This document shows, in pieces, positions 19,064 to 34,548 of a stretch of DNA of 34,548 nucleotides. The translations under genes and the position numbers were made by a program. The notes beneath the pieces are model-generated. The model did no database searches, was not told the DNA's origin, and saw only the letters and a program-made list of their open reading frames with translations. The DNA is from Actinomycetota bacterium (GTDB lineage Bacteria > Actinomycetota > Acidimicrobiia > Spongiisociales > ZC4RG35): positions 1 to 34,548 of the forward strand of contig JAPUJM010000109.1 in assembly GCA_027296205.1 (NCBI GenBank), written 5' to 3'. The stretch's first letter is position 1; each line of letters begins with the position of its first letter.

Positions 19064-19354
19064 TCAGCCGGCGAGCAGACGGAGCGGATCCGGCTCCGTC
19101 TCGAGGGCGGTAGAGAAAGCTTCGATCTCCTGCTCGGAGATCGGATCAGGGTTGACGACCTCGAACTGCACCCCGGTGGCGAGGAGCACGCTGACGACGC
19201 GGGAGTTGGCCGGCCGACGTTGCAGGTATGTGCAAGTCGGGCACTTGAAGCGGTAGTCACCCTCCCTGCCGCCAGGATGCAGCTCCAACGCCACGTCTTC
19301 TGGTGTCAGGTGGATGTCACCGCATCGGGTACACGTCGTCTTGATTGTCGTCAT
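19064..19354 (-). CDS. Small zinc-ribbon protein (CxxC...CxxC), unknown function
   Basis: The ORF extends to 19483 but overlaps pafC. The ATG at 19354 (MTTIKTTCTRCGD...FKCPTCTYLQ...) is preceded by GGAGA; the ATG at 19375 is an alternative start. Confidence 0.6.
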   Translation of the reverse strand: MTTIKTTCTRCGDIHLTPEDVALELHPGGREGDYRFKCPTCTYLQRRPANSRVVSVLLATGVQFEVVNPDPISEQEIEAFSTALETEPDPLRLLAG

Positions 19355-19439
19355 CTCTGGTCTCCGGTCTCCCATTTGTGCCCTTTTGATCGGCAGACAT
19401 TGGGTGAGACTGAAGACCCGTGCTCTAGGTCTATCGACC

Positions 19440-20369
19440 CTATCGGTAGGCGGTGAGGAGACGGCCTCCCAGATCCTTGACACGTTCGGCGACCTCGATG
19501 CCTTTCACCAGCCTGGCATCCTCCCCGAGACGAAGGAGCAAGCGGGCGGGCACTTCGGCATCCGGCGCCGAGAATCGGATCCGTGTGGAACGACTGCTCT
19601 GCCGAAGCACCTCGACCGGGTAGTACTCGAGGACCCAAAGTGCTCTCGGGTAAAGGTCGATCGTGCACACCACATCGTCCTCAGACGCCGTGTAGCCCAC
19701 TCCGGGCTCCGGGACGCGTTTCGGCCGCTCGAACATGTCGTCGGTCACTTCGATGTCCCGGATACGGTCGACACGAAAGGTGCGCTCTTCGTCGACAAGA
19801 CGACAATGTCCCATGACATACCAACGGCCCAGGGTGGTGAAAACGGTCCACGGCTCTATCTCTCGCTCGGTGGTTTCCTCCTTGCCGACGGAGCGATAGG
19901 TAATTCGCACCACCCGTTGGTCGGCGGCGCTGTTGCGGAGGATTCCGACGTTGTCCGACTCGTCGAGAACGTCTACGACGAGCGCCGAAGAGGCTTCCGG
20001 CATGACTGCCTTGGTCAGTTTTCGCACAGCCGATTCCAGGGCGGGTGTCGAGGTCCCCATTCCGACAACCGTCATTCCCGCAGCCAGTAGCCCAAGCGCC
20101 TCGGTGGACGTCAACCGGGGGGCGCGGGTGAAGTAATCGGCCGCGTCGATGATCACTTCGTCCTCGTCGATGTAGGCCTCCATGAGATCTCCGGGCCCGT
20201 ACCCGGGGAGTCCACAAACGAACACGGTGTTCAGGTCACGTGTGAGCTGGTCTTCCGAATAGTCGAACCGGTCGAGGATCTCGCTGACATCAGCCGATTC
20301 TTTCTCGAGCACGTAGGGAATTAGTGCCAGTATGCGTGACAGACGAGAGACGGTCCGGGAGCTGGTCAC
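19440..20369 (-). CDS. pafC: Proteasome accessory factor C (HTH-WYL regulator)
   Basis: 309 aa. N-terminal HTH (RLSRILALIPYVLE...), a central WYL-type segment (GRWYVMGHC), position after pafB. ATGA overlap. Confidence 0.85.
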   Translation of the reverse strand: MTSSRTVSRLSRILALIPYVLEKESADVSEILDRFDYSEDQLTRDLNTVFVCGLPGYGPGDLMEAYIDEDEVIIDAADYFTRAPRLTSTEALGLLAAGMTVVGMGTSTPALESAVRKLTKAVMPEASSALVVDVLDESDNVGILRNSAADQRVVRITYRSVGKEETTEREIEPWTVFTTLGRWYVMGHCRLVDEERTFRVDRIRDIEVTDDMFERPKRVPEPGVGYTASEDDVVCTIDLYPRALWVLEYYPVEVLRQSSRSTRIRFSAPDAEVPARLLLRLGEDARLVKGIEVAERVKDLGGRLLTAYR

Positions 20370-21286
20370 GGGAGATTCTCCAGGGCGGCCTCAATACGCG
20401 TGCGGATCTCATCTCGAATCTCGGGTGGCTCGAGAACCTCGGCAGCGTCACCAAAACTGAGCACCCATCCGACGAGCGCATCGCGGTTCGCAACCGGCAC
20501 GGTCGCCACTAGTTCAGCTTCGGGTTCTTCGAGTCCGAGGGTCCGGGCTGCCCACCATGCAACCTCGGAATCGAAGCGGATCTTTGCTTCGACCTCGGGG
20601 TCGGATCCGGTTTCCCAAGGCTGTGAATCCATGAGCGATCTGACATCGAAACCCCTCGGCTTGGCAAACGTCCCAGTCGTGGCGGAGACGGTGAGCTTCT
20701 CGATCCTGTCGACCCGATAGATCCTCTCACCTTTGGACCCGGCTCCGACCAGATACCAATGGCCACGTCTGTGTGCGATGCCGTAGGGATCGAGTTGGCG
20801 GGTCTTGTCCCGATACTCGAATTCCACGGCTCTCCGCTCTGTGATGGCCCCAAACAGAGATCCGAGCACTTCCGCTTCGGCGCCGAGGTCGGCACCGAGT
20901 GGTTCCAATCCAACACTTCGCTCTATCCCACCAAGCTTGAGGAGAGCATCCAGTCCGGCGTGTGAACCACCCAACCGCACCATTCTGGCCGCTACCGAGA
21001 GCGCGACCCGCTCCTCTTGGGTGAGGCCAGGATCCGGGATGGCGTACTCGTCAGGGTCTACCGTGTAGCCGTAGTCGACCTCCCAGGCGTCCAGAGGGTG
21101 ACGACTGAGAGGCACCCCGAGCTTTCGCAGGACGTCCTTGTCTCTTTCGAACATCCGGTGAAACGCCTCGTCGGTCTGCTCGTCGTAGCCGAGAACCGTG
21201 CGACGCACGTCCTCGGCGGTGACGGGAGCCGGTGACTCGAGCAAGTAGATCAGGAGATTGAGCACACGTTCGACCACGTTCTGCAT
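20366..21286 (-). CDS. pafB: Proteasome accessory factor B (HTH-WYL regulator)
   Basis: 306 aa. VERVLNLLIYLLES HTH and a WYL-type segment (RGHWYLVGA). Lies directly downstream of pafA. Confidence 0.85.
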   Translation of the reverse strand: MQNVVERVLNLLIYLLESPAPVTAEDVRRTVLGYDEQTDEAFHRMFERDKDVLRKLGVPLSRHPLDAWEVDYGYTVDPDEYAIPDPGLTQEERVALSVAARMVRLGGSHAGLDALLKLGGIERSVGLEPLGADLGAEAEVLGSLFGAITERRAVEFEYRDKTRQLDPYGIAHRRGHWYLVGAGSKGERIYRVDRIEKLTVSATTGTFAKPRGFDVRSLMDSQPWETGSDPEVEAKIRFDSEVAWWAARTLGLEEPEAELVATVPVANRDALVGWVLSFGDAAEVLEPPEIRDEIRTRIEAALENLP

Positions 21287-21308
21287 TACCTGGGTGCCTC
21301 GCCCTCCC

Positions 21309-22664
21309 TCAAAGACTTTCGATGAGTTTCTCCACTCGCTCGTCTTCGGACTTGAAAGGGTCCTTGCACATGACGGTGCGCTGAGCCTGGTCGTTGAGCT
21401 TGAGATGAACCCAGTCGACGGTGAAGTCTCTCTTGTGTGCCTTCGCCGCCCTGATGAAGGCTCCTCGGAGCTTTGCCCGAGTCGTCTGTGGAGGGGTGAT
21501 TACAGCCTCTGCCACCTTCTCATCGGTGACGACTCGATCGGTGAGACCCTTGCTCTCGAGCAGGTAGTAGAGACCGCGGCTCCGATCGACATCGTGATAG
21601 GCGAGATCCATCATCGATATGCGAGGATCCGACATGGGAAGACCTCGAACCTCTGAATACCTCACCAGAAGCCGGTATTTCATGACCCAGTCGACCTCCC
21701 GGTGGAGGGTCATCGGGTCCTTCTCCAGACCGGTCAGGAGATGCTCCCAACGATCGATGGCACGTTGGACCTCGGCCGGGAACCCGGGGCTTCGGGCAAA
21801 TCGCATGACTCGGTCGAGGTACTCCCATTGAATGTCTAGAGCGCTCAACTCCCGTCCATTGGCGAGTCTGATTTTTCGGGAGCATGTGATGTCATGAGAC
21901 ACCTCGCGGATGGCGCGTATCGGGTTTTCCAGGGTCAGGTCGCGGAACACCACGTCACGCTCGATCATCTGGAGCAGCGCGACCATCGTGCCGATCTTGA
22001 CGAACGTCGCGTACTCGCTCATGTTGGAGTCGCCGGCTATGACGTGAAGTCGACGGTACTTCTCTGCGTCGGCGTGGGGCTCGTCGCGGGTGTTGATGAT
22101 GGGTCTGGATCGAGTTGTCGCAGACGACACACCCTCCCAAATGTGATCGGCGCGTTGGGCAATCGAAAATGCCGTGCCCCGTGGAGTCTGCGTCAGCTTC
22201 CCGGCACCCAGAAAGATCTGACGTGTGACCAAGAAGGGGATGAGAACGTCGACCGTGCGATGGAAGTCCTTGTGTCTGCTGACCAGATAGTTCTCATGAC
22301 ATCCGTATGAGTTGCCGGCACTGTCGGTGTTGTTCTTGAAGACATAGATTTCGCCCCGGATGCCCTCTTCTTCGAGCCGTTCTTCCGCTCCTGTGACGAG
22401 ACCCTCCAGGATTCGCTCTCCTGCCTTGTCGTGGGCGACTACGTCTTCGAGGCTGTCGCACTCGGGGGTGGCATATTCGGGATGGGATCCCACATCCAGG
22501 TACAGCCTCGCCCCGTTCTCTAGAAACACGTTGGAAGAGCGACCCCAGGAAACGACCCGCCGAAAGAGATAACGAGCGACTTCGTCCGGGCTGAGCCGAC
22601 GCTGACCGCGCAGGGTGCAGGTGACTCCGTACTCGTTCTCTATCCCGAAGATCCTGCGCTCCAT
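21309..22664 (-). CDS. pafA: Pup-protein ligase PafA
   Basis: 451 aa. [16 protein letters not shown]...[21 protein letters not shown], the glutamine-synthetase-like Pup ligase signature. Paralogous to the dop ORF in this window. Confidence 0.95.
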
Positions 22665-22711
22665 GAACCCAGGCTAAACCGGATAGGAGCTCTCGGTCGG
22701 AAGACCGGTGC

Positions 22712-23380
22712 TCAGACCTCGGTGAACTGCTCCACGTCGAGACGGCGGAAGGCTCGTCTGCCGTTGGCGTCGTCAAGGACCGCGGCTTCCCAACCCTCCG
22801 ACTCTCTGTCATCGACGCGGCGAAATGACTCGACACCGGCTGCGAAAGCCTCCTCGAGGCTCATGCCCTCATGCCACAGCTCCTCGAGGACCTCTGTCAA
22901 CTGCTCGGCCTTCCCGCCTATGGCCACGAAGTTACGCTCGTCGTAAAGCGTTCCGTCATAGCTGATCCTGAACAGACGGTGCTCGTCACCATCTTCGGAG
23001 ATCTCGGCGATCAGAACCTCGACCTCGAAGGGCTTGGGGTCACGGGTGAAGATCATGCCGAGGGTTTGGGCAAACGCCGTGGCTAGCCCCATCGCGGTGA
23101 CATCATCTCTGGAATAGAGATATCCCATGAGATCGGCCTGGCGGATGCCCGCCTTGCGCAGTGTCTCGAACTCGTTGTACTTCCCGACGCCGGCGAAGGC
23201 GATGCGGTCGTAGACCTCGGAGATCTTGTGCAGAGCCGTGGAAGGGTTCTCCCCGAGGAGCAGAACTCCACCGCTGTAATCCACCGCGACAATGGACCTG
23301 CCTCGGGCGATGCCCTTCCGGGCGAATTCCGCCTTGTCCCGAACGAGTTGCTCGGGCGCGACGTAAAAGGGAATGGTCAT
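22712..23380 (-). CDS. prcA: 20S proteasome alpha subunit
   Basis: 222 aa, MTIPFYVAPEQLVRDKAEFARKGIARGRS... ATGA overlap with prcB. Confidence 0.9.
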   Translation of the reverse strand: MTIPFYVAPEQLVRDKAEFARKGIARGRSIVAVDYSGGVLLLGENPSTALHKISEVYDRIAFAGVGKYNEFETLRKAGIRQADLMGYLYSRDDVTAMGLATAFAQTLGMIFTRDPKPFEVEVLIAEISEDGDEHRLFRISYDGTLYDERNFVAIGGKAEQLTEVLEELWHEGMSLEEAFAAGVESFRRVDDRESEGWEAAVLDDANGRRAFRRLDVEQFTEV

Positions 23381-24171
23381 CGGATTGTTTCCAATGCCGA
23401 CTCTGCGATCGGGGCGATCACATCGTCGGAAAGCTCCTCAACACCGTCCGAATCGATTCGCACGACATTGGGGAAGATCCCGCGTCTGAGATCGGGGCCT
23501 CCGGTGGCTGTGTCCTCCTGCGAGGCTGAGACCAGTGCCTGGACGGCAAGTTGAGCCGCATCGTCGCCTGTCAGATCGTCCTCGTAGGCTGTTCGCAGAT
23601 ACGAGCGGGCCAGACGTGACCCGGATCCGGTGCTCCCGAAGTCGATTTCCTCGTAACGGCCACCCACGATATCAAAGCTGTACACCCGGCCAATCTCGAG
23701 GCGCTCGTCGTATCCGGCAAATAGCGGTACCACCACGAGACCCTGAAACGCCAGGGGGAGCTGGCCACGGACCAAACGGGCGAGAAAGGAGGCCTTTCCT
23801 TCCAGGGAAAGCCTGATCCCCTCGATCTTCTCGTAGTGCTCCAACTCCACCTGAAAGAGTTTGACCATGTCGATTGCCAGACCAGCAGTGCCGGCGATGG
23901 CAATAGCCGAATAGTGGTCGGCTTTAAACACCTTGCGGATGCGACGATGTGCGACGAGGTTGCCTTCCGTAGCCCGCCGATCACCCGCTATCACCACTCC
24001 ATCCGGGTAGTGGAGGGCAAGAACAGTGGTGCCTTCCGGCGCCGAGGGGGTTGTGGCACCTTCTGGAACAGAGAAGTTTGGGCTCGCTCCCACAATCTCT
24101 AGGAGGTCACTGAAGCTGGCCCCGGGCACCGGGACGTCGAGGGGCAACGGCCCCATCGGTCGTTCGGTCAC
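23377..24171 (-). CDS. prcB: 20S proteasome beta subunit with propeptide
   Basis: 264 aa. Propeptide followed by G/TTVLALHYPDGVVIAGDRRAT (catalytic Thr). ATGA overlap with pup. Confidence 0.9.
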   Translation of the reverse strand: MTERPMGPLPLDVPVPGASFSDLLEIVGASPNFSVPEGATTPSAPEGTTVLALHYPDGVVIAGDRRATEGNLVAHRRIRKVFKADHYSAIAIAGTAGLAIDMVKLFQVELEHYEKIEGIRLSLEGKASFLARLVRGQLPLAFQGLVVVPLFAGYDERLEIGRVYSFDIVGGRYEEIDFGSTGSGSRLARSYLRTAYEDDLTGDDAAQLAVQALVSASQEDTATGGPDLRRGIFPNVVRIDSDGVEELSDDVIAPIAESALETIR

Positions 24172-24356
24172 TGGCCGCCCTTTTGGACGTAGTTCTTGAC
24201 GAATTCCTCTGCATTCTCCTCGAGAACCTCGTCGATTTCATCCAGGAGATCGTCCAGGACCTCCATGTCGGTGTCGCTTTCGACCGTTGCTTCGGCTGTT
24301 GCTTCGGGCTCGTCCTTGCCCTTGTCCCGCGACTTGGAGCGTTCTCGGTCTGACAT
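24168..24356 (-). CDS. pup: Prokaryotic ubiquitin-like protein Pup
   Basis: 62 aa, acidic and disordered, with the C-terminal ...FVKNYVQKGGQ. The GGQ end implies Dop deamidation. Confidence 0.95.
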   Translation of the reverse strand: MSDRERSKSRDKGKDEPEATAEATVESDTDMEVLDDLLDEIDEVLEENAEEFVKNYVQKGGQ

Positions 24357-24361
24357 CTATC

Positions 24362-25831
24362 TCATCCTTCTAGACGTCGGAGCAGGTCCGCTGCGTCCTC
24401 GGCCTCGTCCAGGAGGGCGCCGACTCGTTCGGCGTCGCCTCTCAGGGGCTCCATCATAGGAACGCGCTTGAGATGTGATCCACCGACATCGAACACCAGC
24501 GAATCCCAGTTGGCGGCCACGAGTGAGTCTGGAAAATCGGATACGCAGCGTCCGCGGAAATAGGCACGTGTCCGTTGCGGCGGTGTCGAGACGGCATCCT
24601 CGACTTGTTGATCGGTATAAAGGGTGCGCATCTCGCCCCTGGCGACCAGCCGGTGGTACAGGCCCTTTTCAGGGTCGACATCGTGATACTGGAGGTCGAG
24701 GGCCCTCAGTTTGGGGTTCGACCACTCAAGTCCATCACGTGCCACATAACCCCCAAACAGACGTTTCTTGGCTACCCAGTCCAGGGTGTCGGCCAGTTGC
24801 ATCGGCTCGGTTTCAAGTAGCGCCAGGGTGCGCTCCCACTCCTCGATGAGTTGGTTCCACACGGGCTCATCAAGCTCCTTCTCGACATATTTGGCGAACC
24901 ATTCCAGGTATCTGCCCTGCAGTTCGAGAGCCGTGGCCGAACCTCCTCCGTCGAGCTGGATGGGTCGGCACAACGAAAGATCGTGACTCACCTGCCAGCA
25001 GGCTTCGACCGGGTCGGATAGGTCGAGCGGATCAGGGATGGCTCCGTCTTCGAGGGCGGCGAGCATCAACGCCGTCGTGCCCAACTTCAGGAACATCTGA
25101 ACCTCGGAGAGGTTGGCGTCGCCGATTATCACGTGAAGACGTCTGTACCGAGCCGGGTCGCTATGAGGCTCGTCTCTCGTGTTGATGATCGGGCGTTTGA
25201 GGGTTGTTTCAAGACCGACCTGCTCCTCGAAGAAGTCGGCGCGTTGCGTGATCTGAAAGTCGACATCGGGGCGGTCGTTCTCTCTACCCACCTTTCCGGC
25301 GCCCGTGAAGATCTGACGGGTCACCATGAAGGGAATCGCGTACCTGATCACGTCGCCAAACGGCGTCTCACGGGAAAGCAGATAGTTCTCGTGAGCGCCG
25401 TAGGAGTTCCCCTTGCCGTCGGAGTTGTTCTTGTACAGCGAGACCTGGCGTCCGGAGGTCTCCGAGGCGACGACAGCGGCTTGGTGCATGACTCGCTCCC
25501 CCGCCTTGTCGTAGAGCACTGCTTCCAGCGGGTCGTAGGACTCGGGACTGGAGTATTCGGGGTGGGCATGGTCGACGTAGAGCCGGGCGCCGTTGGCCAG
25601 GACGGAGTTGACCACGGCCCCCTCCGAATCGATCAACCCGTAAGTGTCGTGACCGAATCCGCGAGCGTCACGTCCCGGAGACTCCTCCTCATAAGACCAC
25701 TGGACTTTGACCCTCGCTCCCGGATAGCTATTGACAACGAGGGACGATGCCGCGGCCGGATTGAATCCGGGGTCACCCCTGACGACGATTCCGTACTCGG
25801 TCTCGGTTCCGAGCACCTTGTGGATTGCCAT
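24362..25831 (-). CDS. dop: Pup deamidase/depupylase Dop
   Basis: 489 aa. [17 protein letters not shown]...NGARLYVDHAHPEYSSPE. PafA paralogue located between mpa and pup. The ATG overlaps the mpa TAA stop by 1 nt. Confidence 0.9.
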   Translation of the reverse strand: MAIHKVLGTETEYGIVVRGDPGFNPAAASSLVVNSYPGARVKVQWSYEEESPGRDARGFGHDTYGLIDSEGAVVNSVLANGARLYVDHAHPEYSSPESYDPLEAVLYDKAGERVMHQAAVVASETSGRQVSLYKNNSDGKGNSYGAHENYLLSRETPFGDVIRYAIPFMVTRQIFTGAGKVGRENDRPDVDFQITQRADFFEEQVGLETTLKRPIINTRDEPHSDPARYRRLHVIIGDANLSEVQMFLKLGTTALMLAALEDGAIPDPLDLSDPVEACWQVSHDLSLCRPIQLDGGGSATALELQGRYLEWFAKYVEKELDEPVWNQLIEEWERTLALLETEPMQLADTLDWVAKKRLFGGYVARDGLEWSNPKLRALDLQYHDVDPEKGLYHRLVARGEMRTLYTDQQVEDAVSTPPQRTRAYFRGRCVSDFPDSLVAANWDSLVFDVGGSHLKRVPMMEPLRGDAERVGALLDEAEDAADLLRRLEG

Positions 25832-27558
25832 TACAGGTACTGGCCGCCGGAGACCTTTTCGATGAGCCGGCTCTCCTCGTCTCCCCCGACGAGCGTTCTG
25901 ACATAGACAATCCGCTCGCCCTTTTTCCCGGAGATCTTGGCCCAGTCATCCGGGTTGGTCGTGTTCGGCAGATCCTCGTGTTCGCGGAACTCCTGTTTGA
26001 TCGCAGCTTTCAGATCGGAGGAACGCACGCCGATCGGCCCACCAGCGATTTGGCGTTTGATCGCGTCCTTCTTGGCGCGCCTGACGATGTTCTCGATCAT
26101 CGCCCCGGAGGAAAAGTCCTTGAAGTAGAGCGTCTCTCGATCGCCATTGGCGTATGTCACTTCGAGGAATTCGCGGTCCTTGTCCGTGGCGTACATGTCG
26201 TTGACGGTGTTATCGATCATCGCGACGATGAAATCCCCGACAGAACCACCGAATGAACTCAATTCCTCGGAGTCGATCGGGGTCTCATCGGTGATGTAGA
26301 TCCGGAAGATCTCTCGTGCGGCAACAGGGTCGGGCCGGTTGATCTTGATCTTCACGTCCAGCCGACCGGGGCGGAGAATCGCCGGATCGATCAGGTCTTC
26401 ACGGTTGGATGCACCGATGACGACCACGTTCTTGAGTGATTCGACACCGTCGAGCTCAGACAACAGTTGAGGCACGATGGTCGACTCGACGTCAGAGCTG
26501 ATTCCCGAGCCTCGGGTGCGAAACAGCGAGTCCATCTCGTCGAAGAAAACGATGACGGGAACACCCTCGTCTGACTTCTCTTTCGCCCTCTGGAAAATGA
26601 GACGAATCTGACGCTCGGTCTCACCAACCCACTTGTTGAGCAGTTCGGGGCCTTTGATGTTGAGGAAGTAGGAGCGTACGTCGGGGCGTCCTGAGCGTTC
26701 GGACACCTTCTTGGCCAGGCTGTTGGCCACTGCCTTGGCAATCAGGGTCTTACCGCACCCGGGCGGGCCGTAGAGAAGAATGCCTTTTGGTGGCTCCAGT
26801 TCATACTCCTTGAACAAATCCTTGTGCATATACGGAAGCTCGACGGTGTCGCGAATCTGCTCTATCTGCTCTGCCAGACCGCCCACCTCGGCATATGTCA
26901 CGTCGGGGACCTCTTCGAGGACGAGTTCTTCCATTTCCGGTCTCTCCATCTTCTCCAGAATCAGACCGGTCTTCGTATCGATCCGGACATAGTCGCCGGC
27001 CCGGAGAAAGACCTCTGTCATCGCCTCGGAACGTTTGAGAACCTTTTCTTCGTCGGCGTGGGCAACGATCATCACCCGGCCGTCGTCGAGTGTCTCCCGC
27101 ACCCTCAAAACGTCGCCCGCGGGCTCGAAGGATCGGACGTCGATGACGTTGAAGGCCTCGTTGAGGAGGACCTCCTGGCCGACCTGGAGCTTCTTTACCT
27201 CCACACTTGGCTGGGCGGCGACCCGGAGCTTGCGAGAGCCGGTGAGGACATCGACGGAGCCGTCGGCGTTGACCTGTAGAACGGTTCCGAAGTTATTGGG
27301 AGGAGAGGTGAGCTTCTCCACCTCTTCCCTGAGCACACCGAGTTGTTCGCGGGCCTCTTCCAAGAGATGGGAGAGCTTGTCGTTCTGGGCGGCTGCGCGA
27401 TCAAGCCGATCACGGGTGCGTGAGAACTCCGACTCGAGGTCGTCGAGCTTGCCCGGGGCCTCGCGAACCCGGCGGCGAAGATAAGCGATTTCCTCTTCGA
27501 GTGCGGCGACGACCTGACGAACCTGAGCCGCGTCATCCTGTGTCCGTCCTTCTTCCAC
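25831..27558 (-). CDS. mpa: Proteasome-associated AAA+ ATPase Mpa/ARC
   Basis: 575 aa. N-terminal coiled coil, Walker A GPPGCGKT, Walker B FFDEMD, C-terminal ...GGQYL proteasome-docking tail. GTG start with an AGGAGG RBS. Confidence 0.95.
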
Positions 27559-27702
27559 GGCTTTCCTCCTGGCCTAGGGTCGCCTGCAATGAGTATACGA
27601 AGGGGTTCGGTTACTTATCTGCGATCCTTTAGGCGCTCGTGAGATTGGTCCGGCAAAACGAAGACGTCGCGGGCAATCTCCCCGCGCAGTCCGTCGCCGG
27701 CA

Positions 27703-30551: not shown

Positions 30552-31850
30552 GTGCGAATGGTGAATCCGGTCACTTCAATGCGGTCGCTCGGCCCCCGTT
30601 ACATCGCACTGTGGGTGGGTCAAACCATTAGCCAGGTCGGCACGTACGTCGCCTTCCTGACGATTCCGCTCCTCGTTCTTCATATTCAGGAATTCACCGG
30701 GACGGGGAGCGTCCTGGATTTCTCGATCGCGTACGCGCTGGAGACCGCCCCGACCCTGCTGGTAGGTCTGGTAAGTGGTGTTCTTCTCGATCGATGGCAT
30801 CTGCGGCCGGTGATGGTGGCGACGGACCTATTGCGCGCCTCGGCCTTCTTCTATCTGGCCGCGGAAGTGGGGAACTACGGAACCTCCACGGTGTTTGTGA
30901 TGGCATTCTTGATCGGGTCGATGACGACTCTCTTTGATGGGGCGCTCTATTCCCTGATCCCTTCAATCGTCAAGCGAGAGCGTTTGGCCGACGCCAACGC
31001 GTATGTCGCGGCGAGTCAGCAGGCCAGCTTTGCCCTTGGTCCTCTTCTGGCGGGCGTCATGGCCGTCGTCTTCGCCGGGCCCGCGCTCGGGCTTTTCGTC
31101 AACGGCCTGACCTTCGTGGCCTCGGCGATATCGCTGAAGTGGGTCGGGCGTGTCCCCCATCATCGCCGTCCAGAAGACGAGAGGCAGCCTTTTTTCACCG
31201 AGGCAGTCAACGGGATTCGATACCTCTGGGCCGAACCGAGGCTTCGGGTCACCACCATCGCCTCGGCCGTCCCCAACTTTGTCATGGGTTTCATCGAGGC
31301 GACCTTTGTGGTGCTGGCTTTCGAGGTCCTGATGGCCGAGTCCGAGCTCCAGGTTGGGGTTCTTCTTTTCGCCATGGGCGTGGGTGGGGTCATCGGCGCC
31401 CTCATCGCTCCCCGAATCACCCGCAGGTTGGGTTTGGGAAGGGCTCTGGTGGCCGGGATGGCCATCGCCGGAGTCGGGCTGTTTCTCGTGATGTTCACGA
31501 CCTACGGTCTCCTGACGCTGGCACTCCAGGCGGGATGGATGTTCGGAGTCTCCGTCATCAACATCCCTTTGGCGACTATCCGTCAGCACTACGCCGCGGA
31601 ATCGATGCTGGGCCGTGTGATCACGGCAAGCCGCGCCATCGGTTGGGCGACACTCCCCCTCGGTGCGCTGATTGGCGGCTGGCTTGGCGCCAGCGAGTCG
31701 ACCTACCCATGGGTCGCCCGCTCATTCCCGCTCCTGCTGATTGCCACCGCTCTCTGGCTCTACACCACGGTTGTCTGGACTGACACGTTCGGACCTGGTT
31801 TCGAGCTGGCGAAGGAAGTCGCTTCCGATGAAGCGAAGACCGTCGACTAG
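30552..31850 (+). CDS. MFS transporter (EntS/DUF894-like)
   Basis: 432 aa, about 12 predicted TM helices. N-terminal YIALWVGQTISQVGTYVAFLTIPLLV. The start is ambiguous (30552 GTG, 30558 ATG, 30579 ATG). Confidence 0.8.
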   Translation: MRMVNPVTSMRSLGPRYIALWVGQTISQVGTYVAFLTIPLLVLHIQEFTGTGSVLDFSIAYALETAPTLLVGLVSGVLLDRWHLRPVMVATDLLRASAFFYLAAEVGNYGTSTVFVMAFLIGSMTTLFDGALYSLIPSIVKRERLADANAYVAASQQASFALGPLLAGVMAVVFAGPALGLFVNGLTFVASAISLKWVGRVPHHRRPEDERQPFFTEAVNGIRYLWAEPRLRVTTIASAVPNFVMGFIEATFVVLAFEVLMAESELQVGVLLFAMGVGGVIGALIAPRITRRLGLGRALVAGMAIAGVGLFLVMFTTYGLLTLALQAGWMFGVSVINIPLATIRQHYAAESMLGRVITASRAIGWATLPLGALIGGWLGASESTYPWVARSFPLLLIATALWLYTTVVWTDTFGPGFELAKEVASDEAKTVD

Positions 31851-32052: not shown

Positions 32053-32295
32053 GTGAATCTGTTCGTAGGCAACTTGCCTTACACAACATCCGACGACGAT
32101 CTCCGCCAAATGTTCGAGCCTCATGGCTCGGTCGATTCGGCACGTGTGATCACCGATCGCGAGACCGGGAGGTCTCGAGGCTTTGGATTCGTCGAAATGG
32201 CCGATTCGGCCGCAAACGAAGCAATCGAGGCTCTCAACGGGTCCGACATCGGAGGCCGCGAGCTCGTGGTCAACGAGGCACGCCCTCGCCGCTGA
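32053..32295 (+). CDS. RRM-type (RNP-1/RNP-2) RNA-binding protein, 80 aa
   Basis: GTG at 32053 preceded by GAGGAAG. VNLFVGNLPYTTSDDDL (RNP-2) and RGFGFVEM (RNP-1). Occupies the 3' part of the longer track ORF 31741..32295. Confidence 0.85.
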   Translation: MNLFVGNLPYTTSDDDLRQMFEPHGSVDSARVITDRETGRSRGFGFVEMADSAANEAIEALNGSDIGGRELVVNEARPRR

Positions 32296-32312
32296 GTCGG
32301 CTTTAGAAGCAG

Positions 32313-32345
32313 AAAACCGAGTGCCCTGGGTACTCGGTTTTGCTG
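32313..32345 (+). terminator. Rho-independent, potentially bidirectional terminator after the RRM gene
   Basis: AAAACCGAGT-gccctgggt-ACTCGGTTTT, a 10-bp stem whose outer A/T pairs double as A-tract and T-tract, followed by GCTGTCT. Confidence 0.7.
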
Positions 32346-32416
32346 TCTGAAAGAGAACGGAAGGCTATAGAAGCCAAGGGGCGATACCGACTTGCTATCG
32401 CCGGAGCTGTGTGCTC

Positions 32417-33391
32417 ATGAGGGACGGAGCGACCGAGTCATTCGAGGAGTTCAAGGACTCGTTTGCCTATGGCTCGAGAAACGATCTGTCGTTCAAATTC
32501 CTCAAAGGGATCAGTTCCGATGAAGCTGGAGAGTTCTTCAGCAGACTTCTCGAAGAGGTTGGTGAGCTGTTCGACGGCACATCGACCGATCGGCTGATCG
32601 ACCTCGTGTACGAATGGCAGGTGAGGGCCTATCAGCCGGAGGCCACCGCAAAGAGAACTTACGTCTATGAGGACCGCCCGTTCACACCGCTTGCCAAGCC
32701 CCTCACCGAAACGACAGTCGGCCTGGTCACTTCGTCGGGACACTTCGTCTCGGGCGATGATCCGTCACCCCTTGACCGGGATGACATGACTCAGGATTGG
32801 GCCATTGCCCAAATAACTGAGTTTCTGCGAGCCGTGCCCGTTCTGAGTGAGATCCCAAGGGACCTGTCTGCCGCAGAGATCCGGGTACGCCACCCCGGAT
32901 ACGACATCCGGTCGGTGTCTCGTGATTTAGATGTTGCCCTTCCCAGGGCGCCTCTCATTGAAGCCGAGCGCGCCGGTCGCATAGGACGACTTGCTCCGAC
33001 TCTGTTTTCTTTCGTCGGAGCCTGCTCGCAGGGTCGCCTCAACAACGAGCTCGACGACTGGGTGCAACTATGGGAGAGCGAAGGCATCGAGGCGCTCTTC
33101 CTGGTACCCGTCTGACCGGTCTGTCATGTGTCGGTCGGACACATAGCGAGAAAAGCCGAAATGGAGGGTCTTCCAACTGTCACCGTGATTGTCCGGTCCT
33201 TCAGACATGTTGCCGAAGAGATGGGCTTCCCCCGCACAGTGATCACGCGCCACCCGATGGGTCGCCCCCTGGGACCACCAGGAGACAGCTCGACCCACAG
33301 TCGCGTTGTCGGGACGGCTCTCCACCTCCTGGACACGGCGACCGAAGGTGGAGCCATCGTCGAGCTAGAGGACCCCTACCGACCTGGCTGA
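32417..33391 (+). CDS. GrdB/PrdB-family (glycine/sarcosine/betaine/proline reductase component B-like) putative selenoprotein, with TGA 33113-33115 read as Sec
   Basis: ORFs 32411..33115 and 33128..33391 are in frame (offset 717). The fused sequence is ...EALFLVPV-U-PVCHVSVGHIARKAEMEGLPTVTVIVRSFRHVAEEMGFPRTVITRHPMGRPLGPP.... This parallels my recollection of GrdB around its Sec (..LTST-U-GTCTRCGATMVKEIERAGIPVV...IPHPLGNP). Upstream TVGLVTSSGHFVSGDDP and RIGRLAPTLFSFVGA also resemble the family. ATG at 32417 with GGAG 10 nt upstream; GTG at 32411 is an alternative. Confidence 0.7.
33126..33144 (+). promoter_or_regulatory. SECIS-like hairpin downstream of the in-frame UGA
   Basis: ATGTGTC-GGTCG-GACACAT, a perfect 7-bp stem with a G-rich 5-nt apical loop. 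The stem starts 11 nt after the UGA and the loop 18 nt after it. Confidence 0.55.
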
Positions 33392-33460
33392 GCCGTGGTT
33401 GTTCAATCGACGCCTTTTCGTGAGGTTCCTTGTATGGACGATTAAATGGGAAGCACCGCC

Positions 33461-34548
33461 ATGTCGATAGAGACTTGTGGCAGGGCTAGAGCGATGACCG
33501 ACACACCCACGAAAACGTCACCGAAGTTGAACCTGACGGCCCGCGACCGGAGGGTCCTGGATTCTCTTTTCGCGATCGACACGCGAGCTCTTGCCGTCCT
33601 CCGGGTCGGACTCGCCGCAATCATCCTTTACGAAGCGTTCTTTGTCGTGCTTCCACGGCCCAGAACCGGTTCGGGGCTAGGCGGGTTCGCCGTGGATTAC
33701 GCCGGTGTTCTGATCATTCCTTTCGCGGTGATGCTGTTCATCGGTTACCGAACTCGCTTCGCCACCATCCTGTGCTGGCTGCTCTACTCGATCCCGATTC
33801 GGAGCGCGCTTCTGGCGCCCGAAAGTGGCGTTGACCTGGGGAACTTCCTACTTGCCCTCTTTCTCTTTTGGGGCATGTTCCTACCCCTGGGAGCCAACCT
33901 CTCGTCCGACGCCAGACGAGACCGCTCGAGCAAGCCGGTCCGTTTCCTTTCGGTCGGAAGCGCGGCGGTGCTCGTGCAGGTGTTCATCATCTATTTCTCT
34001 TCTGGTGTGACCAAGCACATGGGAGAGTGGGTCTTCGATCGCACGGCGTTGGAGACGGTGTTGGGAATTCCGCGCTTCAGTACCGACCTCGGGCAGGCGC
34101 TAACCCAGTTCCCGGTCGTTCTCGGCTTCTTCTCCGTCACGACCGTTGCATTTGAGATCATTGGCACTGTTCTTCTCTTCGTCCCGGGGAGGACGTTGAA
34201 TTCCCGACGGACGGTCATCGCCACGGCGTTTATCGGATTTCATGCCGGGATAGCCCTACTCATGGGCATCGGAATCTTTCCGTTTGTCATGATGTTCGTG
34301 TGGCTCGTCTTCCTGCCGACACCGGTTTGGGATCGGCTCTTCAAGCGGAGCACTCTGGAATCGACTCCTGTTGGGGCAGTTGTCGACAGAAATCGATCGC
34401 GGAATATCACGGCCACGTTCGCTTTGGGCTTCATAATCGTGTCTAACGCCATGACCTGGCTCTACTTCCCGGTTCAGGAGGGGTTCCCGGCAGCGTGGCA
34501 AACGGTGGGGAGATATCTCCTTCTCTATCAGCAGTGGGCGATGTTCAG
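33461..34548 (+). CDS. HTTM-domain (vitamin K-dependent gamma-carboxylase-like) polytopic membrane protein; 3' end beyond the window
   Basis: Open frame from the TAA at 33443 to the window end, so it is not in the ORF track. Candidate ATGs at 33446, 33461 and 33494. Translation: ...LFAIDTRALAVLRVGLAAIILYEAFF...IYFSSGVTKH...FIGFHAGIALLMGIGIFPFVMMFVWLVFLP...YLLLYQQWAMF. Multi-TM with the Q-x-W-x-MF motif typical of HTTM proteins. Confidence 0.6.
   Translation, partial: MSIETCGRARAMTDTPTKTSPKLNLTARDRRVLDSLFAIDTRALAVLRVGLAAIILYEAFFVVLPRPRTGSGLGGFAVDYAGVLIIPFAVMLFIGYRTRFATILCWLLYSIPIRSALLAPESGVDLGNFLLALFLFWGMFLPLGANLSSDARRDRSSKPVRFLSVGSAAVLVQVFIIYFSSGVTKHMGEWVFDRTALETVLGIPRFSTDLGQALTQFPVVLGFFSVTTVAFEIIGTVLLFVPGRTLNSRRTVIATAFIGFHAGIALLMGIGIFPFVMMFVWLVFLPTPVWDRLFKRSTLESTPVGAVVDRNRSRNITATFALGFIIVSNAMTWLYFPVQEGFPAAWQTVGRYLLLYQQWAMF

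What the first reader, a model, noticed from the sequence alone, without database searches (positions are those of the whole stretch)
33113..33144. In-frame UGA plus SECIS-like hairpin: a GrdB/PrdB-family selenoprotein hidden as two ORFs
**Seen directly**
- ORFs 32411..33115 and 33128..33391 are in the same frame. They are separated only by the TGA (33113-33115) and four sense codons.
- Reading through gives ...GIEALFLVPV-U-PVCHVSVGHIARKAEMEGLPTVTVIVRSFRHVAEEMGFPRTVITRHPMGRPLGPP..., which contains a U-x-x-C redox motif.
- A perfect hairpin ATGTGTC-GGTCG-GACACAT (33126-33144) starts 11 nt after the TGA, and its G-rich apical loop begins 18 nt after it.

**From memory**
- Clostridial GrdB carries Sec in a U-x-x-C-x-x-C motif, followed by a segment like ...MVKEIERAGIPVV...IPHPLGNP. 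The sequence here parallels that.
- Bacterial SECIS elements are hairpins placed shortly 3' of the UGA, with conserved G residues in the apical loop.

**Inference**

This is a single gene of about 324 aa encoding a selenoprotein. An automatic annotation would split or truncate it.

No GrdA, GrdC, GrdD, GrdE or Prd partners and no sel genes are in the window. It therefore appears to be an orphan GrdB-like thiol/selenol oxidoreductase of unknown substrate.
Basis: partly seen in the sequence, partly recalled or inferred. Interest (0 to 1): 0.75.

Follow-up and report, generated by a model that had tools for sequence, protein, structure and literature searches.

The report
PrdB-like selenoprotein gene split by UGA
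The two adjacent ORFs are one gene for a 324-residue selenocysteine-containing enzyme related to the PrdB subunit of D-proline reductase; this selenoprotein family has been catalogued since 2005, so the finding is correct but not new, although what the enzyme does without its usual partner PrdA is still unknown.

Summary
The observation and the interpretation both hold. ORFs 32417-33112 and 33116-33391 are one reading frame interrupted only by TGA 33113-33115. All 85 orthologues examined, from several phyla, carry TGA at this column. Five of six full-length homologues have Cys there. The frame stays open for 83-181 more codons and evolves like coding sequence.

The hairpin (stem 33126-33132/33138-33144, loop GGUCG) meets all four published bacterial SECIS criteria. 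RNAalifold recovers it independently, and four stem pairs show compensatory changes, some at the cost of amino-acid changes.

The protein is an N-terminal ~88-residue helical domain plus a complete PrdB-like domain. Its U-x-x-C-H motif aligns with the Sec of genuine PrdB. It fails the curated PrdB and GrdB thresholds. No PrdA was found in 902 kb around 88 family loci, and no neighbour is conserved.

The selenoproteome literature already lists this family as "proline reductase PrdB, pfam07355, UxxC", abundant in Sargasso Sea and GOS data. This is therefore a new member of a known kind, and public databases routinely deposit it as two ORFs.

Not shown: Sec machinery in this genome, and the substrate. 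From the window alone, about 0.5 such TGA-plus-hairpin cases are expected by chance; the comparative data are decisive.

The parts
32403..32406 (+). Shine-Dalgarno-like GGAG, 10 nt upstream of the likely start codon
   Evidence: Read directly from the sequence. Its spacing fits ATG 32417 but not GTG 32411.
32417..33391 (+). Complete coding sequence of the PrdB-like selenoprotein: 324 aa, Sec233 encoded by TGA 33113-33115, true stop TGA 33389-33391
   Evidence: Translation. 85 of 85 orthologues share the architecture. tblastn matches in 80 genomes run from about residue 5 to about 325 across the TGA.
32417..32680 (+). N-terminal domain of about 88 residues, specific to this clade, with the conserved motif F-x-x-F-K-x-S-F-x-Y-G-x-R-x-D-L-x-F-K-F. 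It is absent from genuine PrdB.
   Evidence: No Pfam or NCBIfam coverage of residues 1-89. No match to PrdB, PrdA or the CBO2463-domain protein. The AF2 model of homologue P0022 predicts it as helical (H23-85).
32681..33388 (+). PrdB-like catalytic domain, with conserved SSGH, RVRH-GYD, U-P-V-C-H and HPMGRP-G-P elements
   Evidence: TIGR04483 PrdB aligns to residues 91-324 = profile 20-235 of 238. The family HMM scores 128.9 bits against Terrisporobacter PrdB over PrdB residues 22-238. tblastn against annotated prdB genes covers query 91-323.
33113..33115 (+). In-frame UGA read as selenocysteine (U233)
   Evidence: TGA at this column in 85 of 85 loci. Cys in full-length homologues P0022, P0028, P0036, P0053 and P0067. 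It aligns with the annotated in-frame TGA of genuine prdB.
33122..33124 (+). Codon of Cys236, the resolving cysteine of the U-x-x-C motif; it also forms the 5' side of the lower SECIS stem
   Evidence: Invariant C in all homologues and in PrdB. Pairs 33123:33147 and 33124:33146 were predicted by RNAalifold.
33123..33147 (+). Bacterial SECIS element. Lower pairs 33123-33124/33146-33147; C33125 opposite A33145 unpaired; upper stem 33126-33132/33138-33144; apical loop 33133-33137 (GGUCG).
   Evidence: All four bSECIS criteria are met: 5-nt loop, 7-bp stem, G in the first loop positions, 17-nt spacing, MFE -8.3 to -10.9 kcal/mol (criteria from PMC13188914). RNAalifold recovers it on 77 sequences. 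96% of cells pair against 14-61% in slid controls, 4 pairs have compensatory changes, and 0 of 500 shuffles reach the covariation score. Synonymous codons are fixed: Gly GGA/GGG 77 of 77, Val GTG 71 of 72, both against a 41% background.
33389..33391 (+). True stop codon (TGA)
   Evidence: The orthologues' frames end 83-116 codons after Sec, with one at 181.

Best explanation
Positions 32417-33391 are one gene for a 324-residue selenoprotein.

Recoding. UGA 33113-33115 is recoded as selenocysteine. The mRNA hairpin at 33123-33147, whose GGUCG loop starts 17 nt after the UGA, acts as a bacterial SECIS. By established knowledge of bacterial Sec insertion, such a hairpin recruits SelB carrying Sec-tRNA(Sec) to the ribosome paused at the UGA. 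The anatomy and its conservation are shown here. SelB binding and selenium incorporation are inferred.

The protein. It is a stand-alone member of the GrdB/PrdB superfamily (Pfam PF07355) and is closest to the PrdB subunit of D-proline reductase. It carries the same U-x-x-C-H centre, placed between a beta-strand and the N-terminus of a helix, plus a clade-specific helical N-terminal domain.

Most likely mechanism, inferred by analogy with PrdB and GrdB, at about 45% confidence:
1. The Sec233 selenolate attacks an electrophilic atom of a bound small-molecule substrate and reductively cleaves a bond.
2. Cys236 resolves the selenium adduct into a Se-S bond.
3. A cellular dithiol or disulfide-reductase system, such as thioredoxin, re-reduces that bond.

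It is probably not a D-proline reductase, because the pyruvoyl-bearing partner PrdA is absent from every locus examined.
For: Recoding
- Same frame with a single TGA.
- TGA at the identical column in 85 of 85 loci, from Acidimicrobiia, Chloroflexota, Gemmatimonadota, Acidobacteriota, SAR324, Desulfobacterales, Spirochaetales and the Olavius delta-1 symbiont.
- Cys in five of six full-length homologues.
- Codon-position diversity after the hairpin (0.41/0.29/0.64) equals that upstream (0.37/0.32/0.63).

SECIS
- All four published criteria are met (PMC13188914).
- Unbiased RNAalifold gives the same hairpin.
- Compensatory changes occur at 4 pairs, and some change the protein: V to M, H to Y, V to G with H to L.
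- Synonymous positions in the stem are fixed.
- Two of four Cys-form genes use pair-breaking codons never seen in the 77 Sec forms.

Family
- PF07355 scores 26.1 bits against a gathering score of 22.
- TIGR04483 PrdB scores 79 bits over residues 91-324.
- The family HMM scores 129 bits against genuine PrdB with the Sec columns aligned: LLTAG-U-GTCH against FLVPV-U-PVCH.
- AF2 model of Cys form P0022: pLDDT 92, with the Cys between strand 237-241 and helix 245-260.

Orphan status
- No neighbour cluster occurs in more than 9 of about 80 loci.
- No PrdA or CBO2463 hit in 902 kb, while the positive control operon is detected.

Sec capacity of the lineage
- Orthologue L065 is from the Olavius delta-1 symbiont, which has a documented large selenoproteome including SelD and five 'proline reductase' selenoproteins (PMC1976440).
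- selA/B/C/D are present in all 84 Actinomarina genomes, class Acidimicrobiia (preprint 10.64898/2026.04.03.716425).
Against: - No selA, selB, selD or tRNA-Sec was found in the window or in any of the 84 related loci examined at that stage. The Sec machinery of this particular genome is therefore unverified.
- Three of the seven upper-stem pairs are forced by the conserved peptide H-V-S-V-G-H-V itself.
- The four Cys-form genes still keep 6-7 of 7 pairs. The hairpin is thus partly a by-product of the protein sequence, and the Cys-form control (n = 4) is weak.
- Rfam has no model that recognises the element.
- The enzymatic mechanism rests wholly on analogy. There is no solved structure of any family member, no substrate, and no conserved partner.
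- Curated PrdB and GrdB thresholds are not reached.
Confidence: 0.88

Rival explanations
1. The TGA is a genuine stop. The locus holds two separate genes, or a gene truncated by a nonsense mutation (a pseudogene), and the hairpin is incidental.
For: Gene callers annotate it this way in every database entry found. In this high-GC window, same-frame open stretches split by one TGA are common (39), and about 0.5 would carry a suitable hairpin by chance.
Against: - A nonsense mutation would not sit at the same column in 85 of 85 orthologues from several phyla.
- That column is Cys in five of six full-length homologues and Sec in genuine PrdB.
- The downstream frame shows purifying selection identical to the upstream part.
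- The 3' part has no conserved start: called starts vary, and products range from 56 to 119 aa.
- Without the 3' part the PrdB domain would lack its redox centre.
Confidence: 0.02
2. It is the B subunit of a true D-proline (or glycine/betaine) reductase, and its partner proteins (PrdA/PrdC, or GrdA/GrdE/GrdC/GrdD) are encoded elsewhere in the genome.
For: - The best family match is PrdB, across the whole PrdB length and with the same U-x-x-C-H centre.
- The literature files these sequences as 'proline reductase PrdB' (PMC1088965, PMC2398784, PMC1976440).
Against: - TIGR04483 scores 79 bits against a cutoff of 300, and TIGR01918 scores 31 against 65.
- There is an extra N-terminal domain of about 88 residues and an insertion of about 30 residues relative to PrdB.
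- No PrdA or CBO2463 hit in 902 kb around 88 loci, whereas genuine prdB has prdA immediately upstream.
- No conserved neighbour at all.
- The Olavius delta-1 symbiont has five such genes but no GrdA or GrdB (PMC1976440).
- By general knowledge, the hosts are largely aerobic lineages such as Acidimicrobiia, Gemmatimonadota and SAR324, not Stickland fermenters. This was not tested here.
Confidence: 0.07
3. The gene is a single selenoprotein, but the protein is a general thiol/selenol-disulfide oxidoreductase or peroxidase (a thioredoxin-like redox carrier) rather than a substrate-cleaving reductase of the PrdB type.
For: - The U-x-x-C motif at a helix N-terminus is the hallmark of redox carriers, and selenoproteome surveys class the family with 'thiol-based oxidoreductases' (PMC1794560, PMC1088965).
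- Weak, lineage-specific links to redox and detoxification genes: arsenite methyltransferase directly upstream in 5 loci, a pyridine-nucleotide disulfide oxidoreductase in 6 loci, and AhpD-like (CMD), DsbD and MerR genes in L004.
- Absence of a pyruvoyl partner.
Against: - At 324 residues, with many invariant non-redox residues shared with PrdB (H-G-GYD, PR, PMG-x-x-G), it looks like a substrate-binding enzyme rather than a small carrier.
- The fold is not thioredoxin-like and has no significant PDB neighbour.
Confidence: 0.3
4. The UGA is read through by a mechanism that does not use selenocysteine (near-cognate Trp/Cys/Arg insertion, or a lineage-specific reassignment), with the hairpin acting as a generic read-through stimulator.
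For: Sec machinery could not be demonstrated for this genome. One homologue (P0070) has Arg at the column.
Against: - There is no genome-wide reassignment: the window's long genes (up to 848 aa) are intact under table 11.
- The column is the catalytic Sec of PrdB and is Cys in most full-length homologues.
- The hairpin fits the SelB-type SECIS model in loop sequence and spacing.
- Family members occur in organisms with documented Sec usage (PMC1976440).
Confidence: 0.03

Closest known systems
'Proline reductase PrdB' selenoprotein family of the environmental selenoproteome surveys (pfam07355, UxxC): Sargasso Sea 2005 (PMC1088965), bacterial genomes 2006 (PMC1794560), Olavius delta-1 symbiont 2007 (PMC1976440), GOS 2008 (PMC2398784)
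   Same: - Same Pfam family, the same U-x-x-C motif, and the same pattern of Sec forms outnumbering Cys forms. GOS reports 235 Sec against 110 Cys. Here, 85 of 85 genome loci are Sec forms, and most whole-query representatives end at the Sec codon.
- Orthologue L065 comes from the Olavius delta-1 symbiont, which that literature credits with five such genes.
- The window gene is most simply a further member of this catalogued family.
   Different: - Those papers label the family by its nearest characterised relative and do not discuss the missing PrdA, the extra N-terminal domain or the function; 'PrdA' does not occur in the Sargasso paper.
- I could not align their accessions directly, so identity of the clade is inferred from L065 and from the shared family and motif.
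PrdB, the 26-kDa selenoprotein subunit of clostridial D-proline reductase (NCBIfam TIGR04483; for example Terrisporobacter plasmid prdB in L087, and Acetoanaerobium noterae in L089)
   Same: - Homologous over the entire PrdB length (27% identity; family HMM 129 bits).
- Sec at the equivalent column in a U-x-x-C-H motif.
- Shared H-G-GYD, GIPTV, PR and PMG motifs.
- In-frame TGA with a downstream coding hairpin.
   Different: - Scores 79 bits against the equivalog cutoff of 300.
- Has an extra helical N-terminal domain of about 88 residues and an insertion of about 30 residues.
- No prdA, CBO2463-domain gene or prdD/E next to it, whereas genuine prdB has all of them adjacent.
- Different host lineages.
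GrdB/GrdF/GrdH, the 47-kDa substrate-specific selenoprotein B of glycine, sarcosine and betaine reductases (TIGR01917, TIGR01918, NF040794, NF040795)
   Same: Same Pfam superfamily (PF07355) and a Sec-first redox motif. The C-terminal halves align (residues about 150-316 to profile positions about 260-429).
   Different: - Much weaker matches (27-38 bits against cutoffs of 65-800).
- About 110 residues shorter.
- Motif is U-x-x-C-H-V-S rather than the U-x-x-C-x-x-C reported for GrdB (PMC13188914).
- No GrdA/GrdE/GrdC/GrdD context.
FarB, the GrdB-like selenoprotein proposed to cleave the C-F bond of fluoroacetate in Synergistota (PMC10838667)
   Same: A member of the same superfamily proposed to have been recruited to a non-amino-acid substrate. 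This is a proposed precedent that the Sec centre can be redeployed for other reductive bond cleavages.
   Different: FarB keeps a GrdE-like partner (FarE) and feeds the glycine reductase A/C system in an anaerobe. The window protein is stand-alone. The two sequences were not compared here.
Cys-type 'glycine/sarcosine/betaine reductase selenoprotein B family proteins' of Alphaproteobacteria (Haematobacter WP_035710215.1 in L088; Roseomonas)
   Same: Orphan PF07355 proteins of about 310 aa with a C-P-I-C-H centre at the same column and no Prd/Grd partners. They are about 30% identical to the window protein.
   Different: They have Cys instead of Sec and a different, shorter N-terminus. The Haematobacter gene lies next to a class-III aminotransferase-fold enzyme gene.

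Membership tests
Bacterial selenoprotein gene (Sec-UGA plus bSECIS) | In-frame UGA that aligns with Cys (or Sec) in homologues | tested here: met
   Cys in P0022, P0028, P0036, P0053 and P0067; P0070 has Arg. TGA in 85 of 85 orthologous loci. Aligned with the Sec codon of annotated prdB.
Bacterial selenoprotein gene (Sec-UGA plus bSECIS) | Reading frame downstream of the UGA conserved as protein | tested here: met
   The frame stays open for 83-181 codons in every locus. Codon-position diversity is 0.41/0.29/0.64 downstream against 0.37/0.32/0.63 upstream. HPMGRP-G-P and other motifs are conserved.
Bacterial selenoprotein gene (Sec-UGA plus bSECIS) | bSECIS consensus model: apical loop 3-9 nt, upper stem 4-16 bp, G in the first two loop positions, 16-37 nt between UGA and loop, MFE at or below -7.5 kcal/mol (PMC13188914, Fig. 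2 legend) | tested here: met
   Loop GGUCG (5 nt), 7-bp stem, 17-nt spacing, MFE -8.3 (19-nt core) and -10.9 (27 nt). 74 of 77 homologues pass the energy cutoff.
Bacterial selenoprotein gene (Sec-UGA plus bSECIS) | Evolutionary support for the RNA structure (covariation beyond what the coding constraint explains) | tested here: met
   RNAalifold gives the same hairpin. There are 4 pairs with double changes; 96% of cells pair against 14-61% in slid controls; 0 of 500 shuffles reach the score. Stem synonymous codons are fixed against a 41% background. Caveat: 3 of 7 pairs are forced by the peptide, and the Cys forms keep 6-7 of 7 pairs.
Bacterial selenoprotein gene (Sec-UGA plus bSECIS) | selA, selB, selC (tRNA-Sec) and selD present in the same genome | not testable with these tools
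   None found in the window or the 84 related loci examined. The rest of the source genome is not available. Support is indirect only: the delta-1 symbiont (L065) has a documented selenoproteome (PMC1976440), and Actinomarinales have selABCD (preprint 10.64898/2026.04.03.716425).
Bacterial selenoprotein gene (Sec-UGA plus bSECIS) | Selenium actually incorporated at the UGA position | not testable with these tools
   Needs 75Se labelling or mass spectrometry.
Pfam PF07355 (GRDB) superfamily | Score at or above the Pfam gathering threshold | tested here: met
   26.1 bits against a cutoff of 22, E = 6.5e-6, residues 90-207. Homologues carry precomputed PF07355.
D-proline reductase subunit PrdB (NCBIfam TIGR04483, equivalog) | Score at or above the curated equivalog cutoff (300 bits) | tested here: not met
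   79.3 bits, although the alignment covers profile positions 20-235 of 238.
D-proline reductase subunit PrdB (NCBIfam TIGR04483, equivalog) | Sec in a U-x-x-C motif at the catalytic position | tested here: met
   U-P-V-C-H aligns with U-G-T-C-H of Terrisporobacter and Acetoanaerobium PrdB.
D-proline reductase subunit PrdB (NCBIfam TIGR04483, equivalog) | Encoded next to prdA, the proprotein that supplies the pyruvoyl group, within a prd operon | tested here: not met
   tblastn with PrdA and the CBO2463-domain protein finds nothing in the window plus 88 loci (902 kb). The positive control finds prdA, CBO2463 and a prdD/E-like gene around A. noterae prdB. No conserved neighbour. A prdA elsewhere in the genome is not excluded.
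D-proline reductase subunit PrdB (NCBIfam TIGR04483, equivalog) | Single-domain protein of about 240 residues | tested here: not met
   324 residues. The N-terminal ~88 residues have no counterpart in PrdB, PrdA or CBO2463.
Glycine/sarcosine/betaine reductase selenoprotein B (TIGR01918 subfamily; TIGR01917; NF040794; NF040795) | Score at or above the curated cutoffs | tested here: not met
   30.7 against 65.45; 27.4 against 602; 35.7 against 800; 38.5 against 775.
Glycine/sarcosine/betaine reductase selenoprotein B (TIGR01918 subfamily; TIGR01917; NF040794; NF040795) | U-x-x-C-x-x-C motif (as described for GrdB in PMC13188914) | tested here: not met
   The sequence is U233-P-V-C236-H-V-S239, and Ser at the third position is conserved across the family.
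Glycine/sarcosine/betaine reductase selenoprotein B (TIGR01918 subfamily; TIGR01917; NF040794; NF040795) | Operon with grdA, grdE (or grdG/grdI), grdC and grdD | tested here: inconclusive
   - No recurrent neighbour cluster, and the seven neighbour proteins annotated (three window neighbours and four recurrent-cluster representatives) are unrelated: MFS, HTTM, ArsM, CoA-binding, disulfide oxidoreductase, DUF6789 and an unresolved RRM ORF.
- Precomputed Pfam for the neighbours in L001-L004 and L093 shows no Grd families.
- No direct GrdA/GrdE sequence search was run.

The most novel reading that the evidence does not exclude
The 'PrdB' selenoprotein counted for two decades among the most abundant selenoproteins of oxic marine and soil bacteria may not be a proline reductase at all. 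It may be a self-sufficient selenoenzyme.

In this reading, a PrdB-type U-x-x-C-H catalytic domain is fused to its own helical N-terminal domain, works without a pyruvoyl partner, and acts on an unidentified substrate. The only genomic hints are lineage-specific:
- coupling to arsenite methyltransferase, which would fit reduction of methylated arsenic or selenium species, or re-reduction of ArsM;
- translational coupling to a small CoA-binding protein.

The evidence here excludes neither this reading nor a more ordinary redox-carrier role.
Probability: 0.55. Interest if true: 0.5.

Novelty: new member of a known kind. Interest (0 to 1): 0.3.

Why it matters
Annotation. This is a clean, verifiable case of a systematic error. 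The catalytic centre, Sec233-x-x-Cys236, is therefore cut off from the rest of the protein. The SECIS alignment built here (77 sequences, invariant G-U-x-G loop core) could seed a family-specific covariance model to repair such annotations, since Rfam has none.

Biology. The gene adds nothing unexpected, because PrdB-like selenoproteins are already known to be widespread. The analysis does sharpen an unaddressed question: what does a PrdB homologue do in bacteria where no PrdA gene accompanies it at any locus examined? It also supplies testable leads, namely the clade-specific N-terminal domain and the arsM and CoA-binding-protein linkages.

Tried and rejected
1. N-terminal extension as a fused copy of the small CBO2463-domain protein that lies between prdA and prdB. 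Rejected: HMM searches with the whole family profile and with its N-terminal part give no match to CBO2463, PrdA or PrdB (E of 0.08 or worse in a 3-sequence search).

2. A conserved operon partner. Rejected: clustering 581 neighbour ORFs from about 80 loci gives no cluster present in more than 9 loci.

3. Sec machinery nearby. tblastn with E. coli SelA/SelB/SelD and ARAGORN on the window plus 84 loci found nothing. I found no way to reach the rest of these genomes with the tools, because ranked homologue searches from E. coli or Firmicute queries would return only close relatives of the query.

4. Solved-structure relatives. phmmer against PDB sequences gave no hit. Foldseek of a pLDDT-92 model gave no hit at E of 1e-3 or better, only generic flavodoxin/Rossmann-like resemblance.

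5. Rfam, at gathering and at permissive thresholds: no relevant family. Rfam has no bacterial SECIS model.

6. Modelling the window protein itself with Cys in place of Sec.

7. Looking up the window's own contig by exact protein: not on record.

8. A possible second split selenoprotein in L004 (pyridine-nucleotide disulfide oxidoreductase next to MerR). Rejected: the gap is a run of N.

9. Simple promoter and terminator scans around the gene found nothing.

10. The first Pfam query for the RRM gene used the wrong frame. The gene was then delimited directly from the sequence.
Full report
**1. The observation**

The sequence is as described.
- An ORF beginning at GTG 32411 ends at TGA 33113-33115.
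- The same frame continues through CCG GTC TGT CAT (P V C H) into the ORF called from GTG 33128, and ends at TGA 33389-33391.
- ATGTGTC-GGTCG-GACACAT at 33126-33144 is a perfect 7-bp stem with a 5-nt loop.

The likely start is ATG 32417. A GGAG lies at 32403-32406, 10 nt upstream, and homologues begin MRDG/MADD. This gives a 324-residue product with Sec at 233 and Cys at 236.

The window alone does not prove the case.
- In this 61% GC sequence, 39 pairs of same-frame open stretches of at least 80 codons are separated by a single TGA.
- A perfect 7-bp hairpin with a G-first loop falls at SECIS distance with probability about 0.012 per TGA.
- About 0.5 such coincidences are therefore expected.
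- A 71-nt fold has a z-score of only -1.39.

**2. Comparative evidence for one gene**

A search of 5.8 billion proteins returned about 240 relatives.
- Nearly all of the 120 listed are 227-235 aa long and end at ...LVPV, exactly where the window has its TGA.
- Some are named 'glycine/sarcosine/betaine reductase selenoprotein B family protein [Acidimicrobiia bacterium]'.
- Six are full length. Five of these read VPV-C-PVCHVSVGH, with Cys at the TGA column; P0070 has Arg.

A scan of one genome per species returned 80 loci in which tblastn runs from about residue 5 to about 325 straight across the stop.
- The hosts are mostly Acidimicrobiia.
- Others include Anaerolineae and other Chloroflexota, Gemmatimonadota, Acidobacteriota, SAR324, Desulfobacterales, Spirochaetales and the Olavius delta-1 symbiont.

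Together with four loci fetched by exact protein, all 85 sequences have TGA at that column.
- The frame then stays open for 83-116 codons in every locus but one, which runs to 181 codons.
- Per-codon-position diversity after the hairpin is 0.41/0.29/0.64, matching 0.37/0.32/0.63 upstream. The 3' part is therefore translated and under the same purifying selection.

A search with the 3' part alone found 96 proteins of 56-119 aa, those with a source name all called 'hypothetical protein'.

**3. The hairpin as a SECIS**

I aligned 77 distinct 75-nt segments around the TGA (A2). RNAalifold, with no guidance, predicts the same hairpin plus two lower pairs after a one-nucleotide mismatch. In window coordinates:
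- lower pairs 33123-33124 with 33146-33147;
- upper stem 33126-33132 with 33138-33144;
- loop 33133-33137.

Pair counts:
- 96% of cells pair, against 14-61% when the 3' partners are slid.
- Four pairs carry double changes: C-G to U-A ten times, G-C to A-U three times, and two singletons.
- No shuffle of 500 reaches the observed covariation score.

Several compensations change the protein: V to M with a synonymous His change in L064, L072 and L083; H to Y in L051; V to G with H to L in L039. The RNA is therefore constrained in its own right.

Loop positions 2, 3 and 5 (G, U, G) are invariant. The loop variants are GGUCG (48), CGUGG (23), CGUCG (4), CGUUG (1) and UGUAG (1).

The published bacterial SECIS model requires a 3-9-nt loop, a 4-16-bp upper stem, a G in the first two loop positions, 16-37 nt between UGA and loop, and an MFE at or below -7.5 kcal/mol (PMC13188914, Fig. 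2 legend). The window has 5 nt, 7 bp, GG, 17 nt, and -8.3 to -10.9 kcal/mol. 74 of 77 homologues pass the energy cutoff.

A caveat I checked: three of the seven stem pairs are forced by the peptide H-V-S-V-G-H-V. The other four depend on synonymous or conservative choices, and these are fixed in the Sec forms.
- The stem Gly codon is GGA or GGG in 77 of 77, against a 41% background in the same genes.
- The stem Val codon is GTG in 71 of 72, against a 41% background.

Four natural Cys-form genes (L090-L093) still keep 6-7 of 7 pairs. Two of them use GGC or GTC, which break a pair and never occur in the Sec forms. This supports a SECIS but is weak at n = 4.

Rfam recognises nothing here, as expected, since it has no curated bacterial SECIS family.

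**4. What the protein is**

Family scores:
- Pfam GRDB (PF07355) is above its gathering score: 26.1 against 22.
- The best NCBIfam match is the PrdB equivalog TIGR04483: 79 bits, residues 91-324 on profile positions 20-235 of 238. It crosses the Sec position but is far below the 300-bit cutoff.
- The GrdB/GrdF/GrdH models score 27-38 bits against cutoffs of 65-800.

Comparison with genuine prdB:
- tblastn against annotated plasmids found genuine prdB genes aligned to residues 91-323 at about 27% identity.
- In Terrisporobacter, prdB has an in-frame TGA in LLTAG-U-GTCH-RSA. It is preceded by prdA and a small CBO2463-domain gene, and selD is on the same plasmid.
- A profile of the 84 read-through orthologues matches this PrdB at 129 bits, with the Sec/Cys columns superposed. 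The H-G-GYD, GIPTV, PR and PMG-x-x-G motifs are shared.

The first ~88 residues have no counterpart in PrdB, PrdA or the CBO2463 protein and no Pfam or NCBIfam match. They carry the strongly conserved motif F-x-x-F-K-x-S-F-x-Y-G-x-R-x-D-L-x-F-K-F.

The motif is U-P-V-C-H-V-S, not the U-x-x-C-x-x-C described for GrdB.

An AlphaFold2 model of the natural Cys form P0022 is confident: pLDDT 92.3, pTM 0.89.
- It shows an N-terminal helical domain followed by alpha/beta domains.
- The Cys(Sec) lies between a strand (237-241) and the N-terminus of a helix (245-260).

No solved structure resembles it by sequence or by fold: 0 hits at E of 1e-3 or better, and the best TM-score is 0.29.

**5. Context**

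The window is actinobacterial in character. Reading the ORF translations, I recognise the Pup-proteasome cluster, TatA/C, RecN and PyrG; this rests on my own knowledge, not on a family search.

The gene's immediate neighbours:
- an MFS transporter gene at 30552-31850;
- a small RRM-type RNA-binding protein gene at 32053-32295, followed by a strong hairpin;
- downstream, an HTTM/SdpB-like membrane protein gene from 33446.

Across about 80 loci, no neighbour family occurs in more than 9 loci.

A direct tblastn with PrdA and the CBO2463 protein finds nothing in 902 kb (window plus 88 loci). The positive control recovers prdA, CBO2463 and a prdD/E-like gene around Acetoanaerobium prdB.

Two weak, lineage-specific links exist.
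- An arsenite methyltransferase (NF008823, 309 bits against a cutoff of 263) lies 19-95 nt upstream on the same strand in five loci from two phyla.
- A CoA_binding_2 protein gene abuts or overlaps the start in at least eight Acidimicrobiia loci.
- Neither is present in the window.

**6. Sec machinery**

No selA, selB, selD or tRNA-Sec was found in the window or in the 84 related loci examined. The rest of the genomes cannot be reached with these tools. Indirect support:
- Orthologue L065 is from the Olavius delta-1 symbiont, whose large selenoproteome includes SelD and five 'proline reductase' selenoproteins (PMC1976440).
- All 84 complete Actinomarina genomes (class Acidimicrobiia) encode selA/B/C/D (preprint 10.64898/2026.04.03.716425).

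**7. Mechanism**

Shown: a single conserved reading frame with a Sec/Cys column, and a covarying hairpin of SECIS geometry.

Inferred from established bacterial Sec biology: SelB with Sec-tRNA(Sec) binds the hairpin and decodes UGA233.

Inferred by analogy with PrdB and GrdB chemistry (general knowledge, not tested here), at roughly 45%: the Sec233 selenolate attacks a bound substrate, Cys236 resolves the adduct to a Se-S bond, and a dithiol system regenerates it.

The main functional rival, at about 30%, is a general selenol/thiol oxidoreductase role.

A classical D-proline reductase role with PrdA encoded elsewhere is unlikely, at about 7%.

**8. Comparison with what is known, and novelty**

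Selenoproteome surveys have listed this family since 2005.
- 'Proline reductase (PrdB)' was the third most abundant selenoprotein family of the Sargasso Sea: 42 genes and 1 Cys homologue (PMC1088965).
- GOS lists 'Proline reductase PrdB, pfam07355, UxxC' with 235 Sec and 110 Cys sequences in 38 samples (PMC2398784).
- 'Proline reductase' appears in Anaeromyxobacter and Geobacter uraniireducens (PMC1794560), and five copies appear in the delta-1 symbiont (PMC1976440).
- Full-text searches found no paper on 'PrdB-like' proteins, none linking proline reductase selenoproteins to Acidimicrobiia, and no mention of PrdA in the Sargasso paper.

The finding is therefore a correct rediscovery: a new member of a known kind of selenoprotein, mis-annotated as usual.

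The family is small in sequence space. There are 304 representatives at E of 1e-3 or better among 1.84 billion, and 27 at E of 1e-30 or better. Those covering the whole query mostly end at the Sec codon.

**9. Verdict**

Interest is 0.3. The residual interest lies in the unknown function of a PrdA-less, N-terminally extended PrdB homologue that is common in oxic environments.

Noticed in passing
L041 5131-5967, L049 1771-2574, L053 446-1252, L059 5121-5978, L069 4943-5935 (each directly upstream of the PrdB-like gene): An arsenite methyltransferase gene (NCBIfam NF008823, 309 bits against a cutoff of 263 for L041) lies 19-95 nt upstream on the same strand in five loci from Actinomycetota and Chloroflexota. 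Four further loci have one within 1-4 kb. NCBIfam also holds ArsM fused to Sec-containing redox domains (NF041537, NF041536), so ArsM may recurrently pair with selenoprotein redox partners.
   Followed up: partly
L001 9609-10004, L002 9589-9987, L003 9577-9987, and the ORF directly upstream in L013, L014, L022, L045 and L050: A small CoA_binding_2 (PF13380) protein gene sits immediately upstream of the selenoprotein gene. In L001, L013, L014, L022, L045 and L050 the gap is -4 to +15 nt, suggesting translational coupling in one Acidimicrobiia sub-clade. It is absent from the window.
   Followed up: partly
P0070 (full-length homologue), alignment A1: This homologue has Arg (LLVAA-R-PVCH) at the Sec/Cys column. 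CGA is one substitution from TGA, so it may be a sequencing or assembly error, an inactivated copy, or a real variant.
   Followed up: no
L055 and L056 (two contigs of the same Anaerolineaceae MAG, JBGSJZ01): Two paralogous copies of the gene occur in one MAG, both with the TGA and the hairpin. This echoes the five copies reported for the Olavius delta-1 symbiont.
   Followed up: no
window 32053-32295 (+) and 32309-32346: A small 80-residue gene for an RRM-type RNA-binding protein (RNP motifs LFVGNL and RGFGFVEM read from the sequence; GTG start) is followed by a strong hairpin (-23.6 kcal/mol) and a T-rich tail. This probably insulates the selenoprotein gene as its own transcription unit. The simple terminator scan did not call it.
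   Followed up: partly
window 33446-34548 (+), running off the end of the window: The downstream gene encodes a membrane protein with an HTTM domain (PF05090, 49 bits) that weakly resembles SdpB-family export proteins (TIGR04033, 35 bits against a cutoff of 178).
   Followed up: partly
window about 17860-27560 (- strand): Read from the ORF translations and not checked with family searches, this stretch looks like the actinobacterial Pup-proteasome cluster: a Mpa/ARC-like ATPase, Dop-like and PafA-like ligases ([27 protein letters not shown]), two proteasome subunits and two WYL-type regulators, followed by TatA/TatC and a large helicase. This fits an Acidimicrobiia origin.
   Followed up: no
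L088 3102-6837 (Haematobacter massiliensis plasmid pOT1-1): A Cys-type orphan PF07355 protein (C-P-I-C-H centre, 308 aa) lies directly downstream of a 900-residue protein annotated as a class-III aminotransferase-fold PLP enzyme, next to cobalamin biosynthesis genes. This is another PrdA-less context for the superfamily.
   Followed up: no
L004 about 12345-12446: An apparently split pyridine-nucleotide disulfide oxidoreductase next to MerR looked like a second hidden selenoprotein, but it is interrupted by a run of N (an assembly gap), not a TGA.
   Followed up: yes
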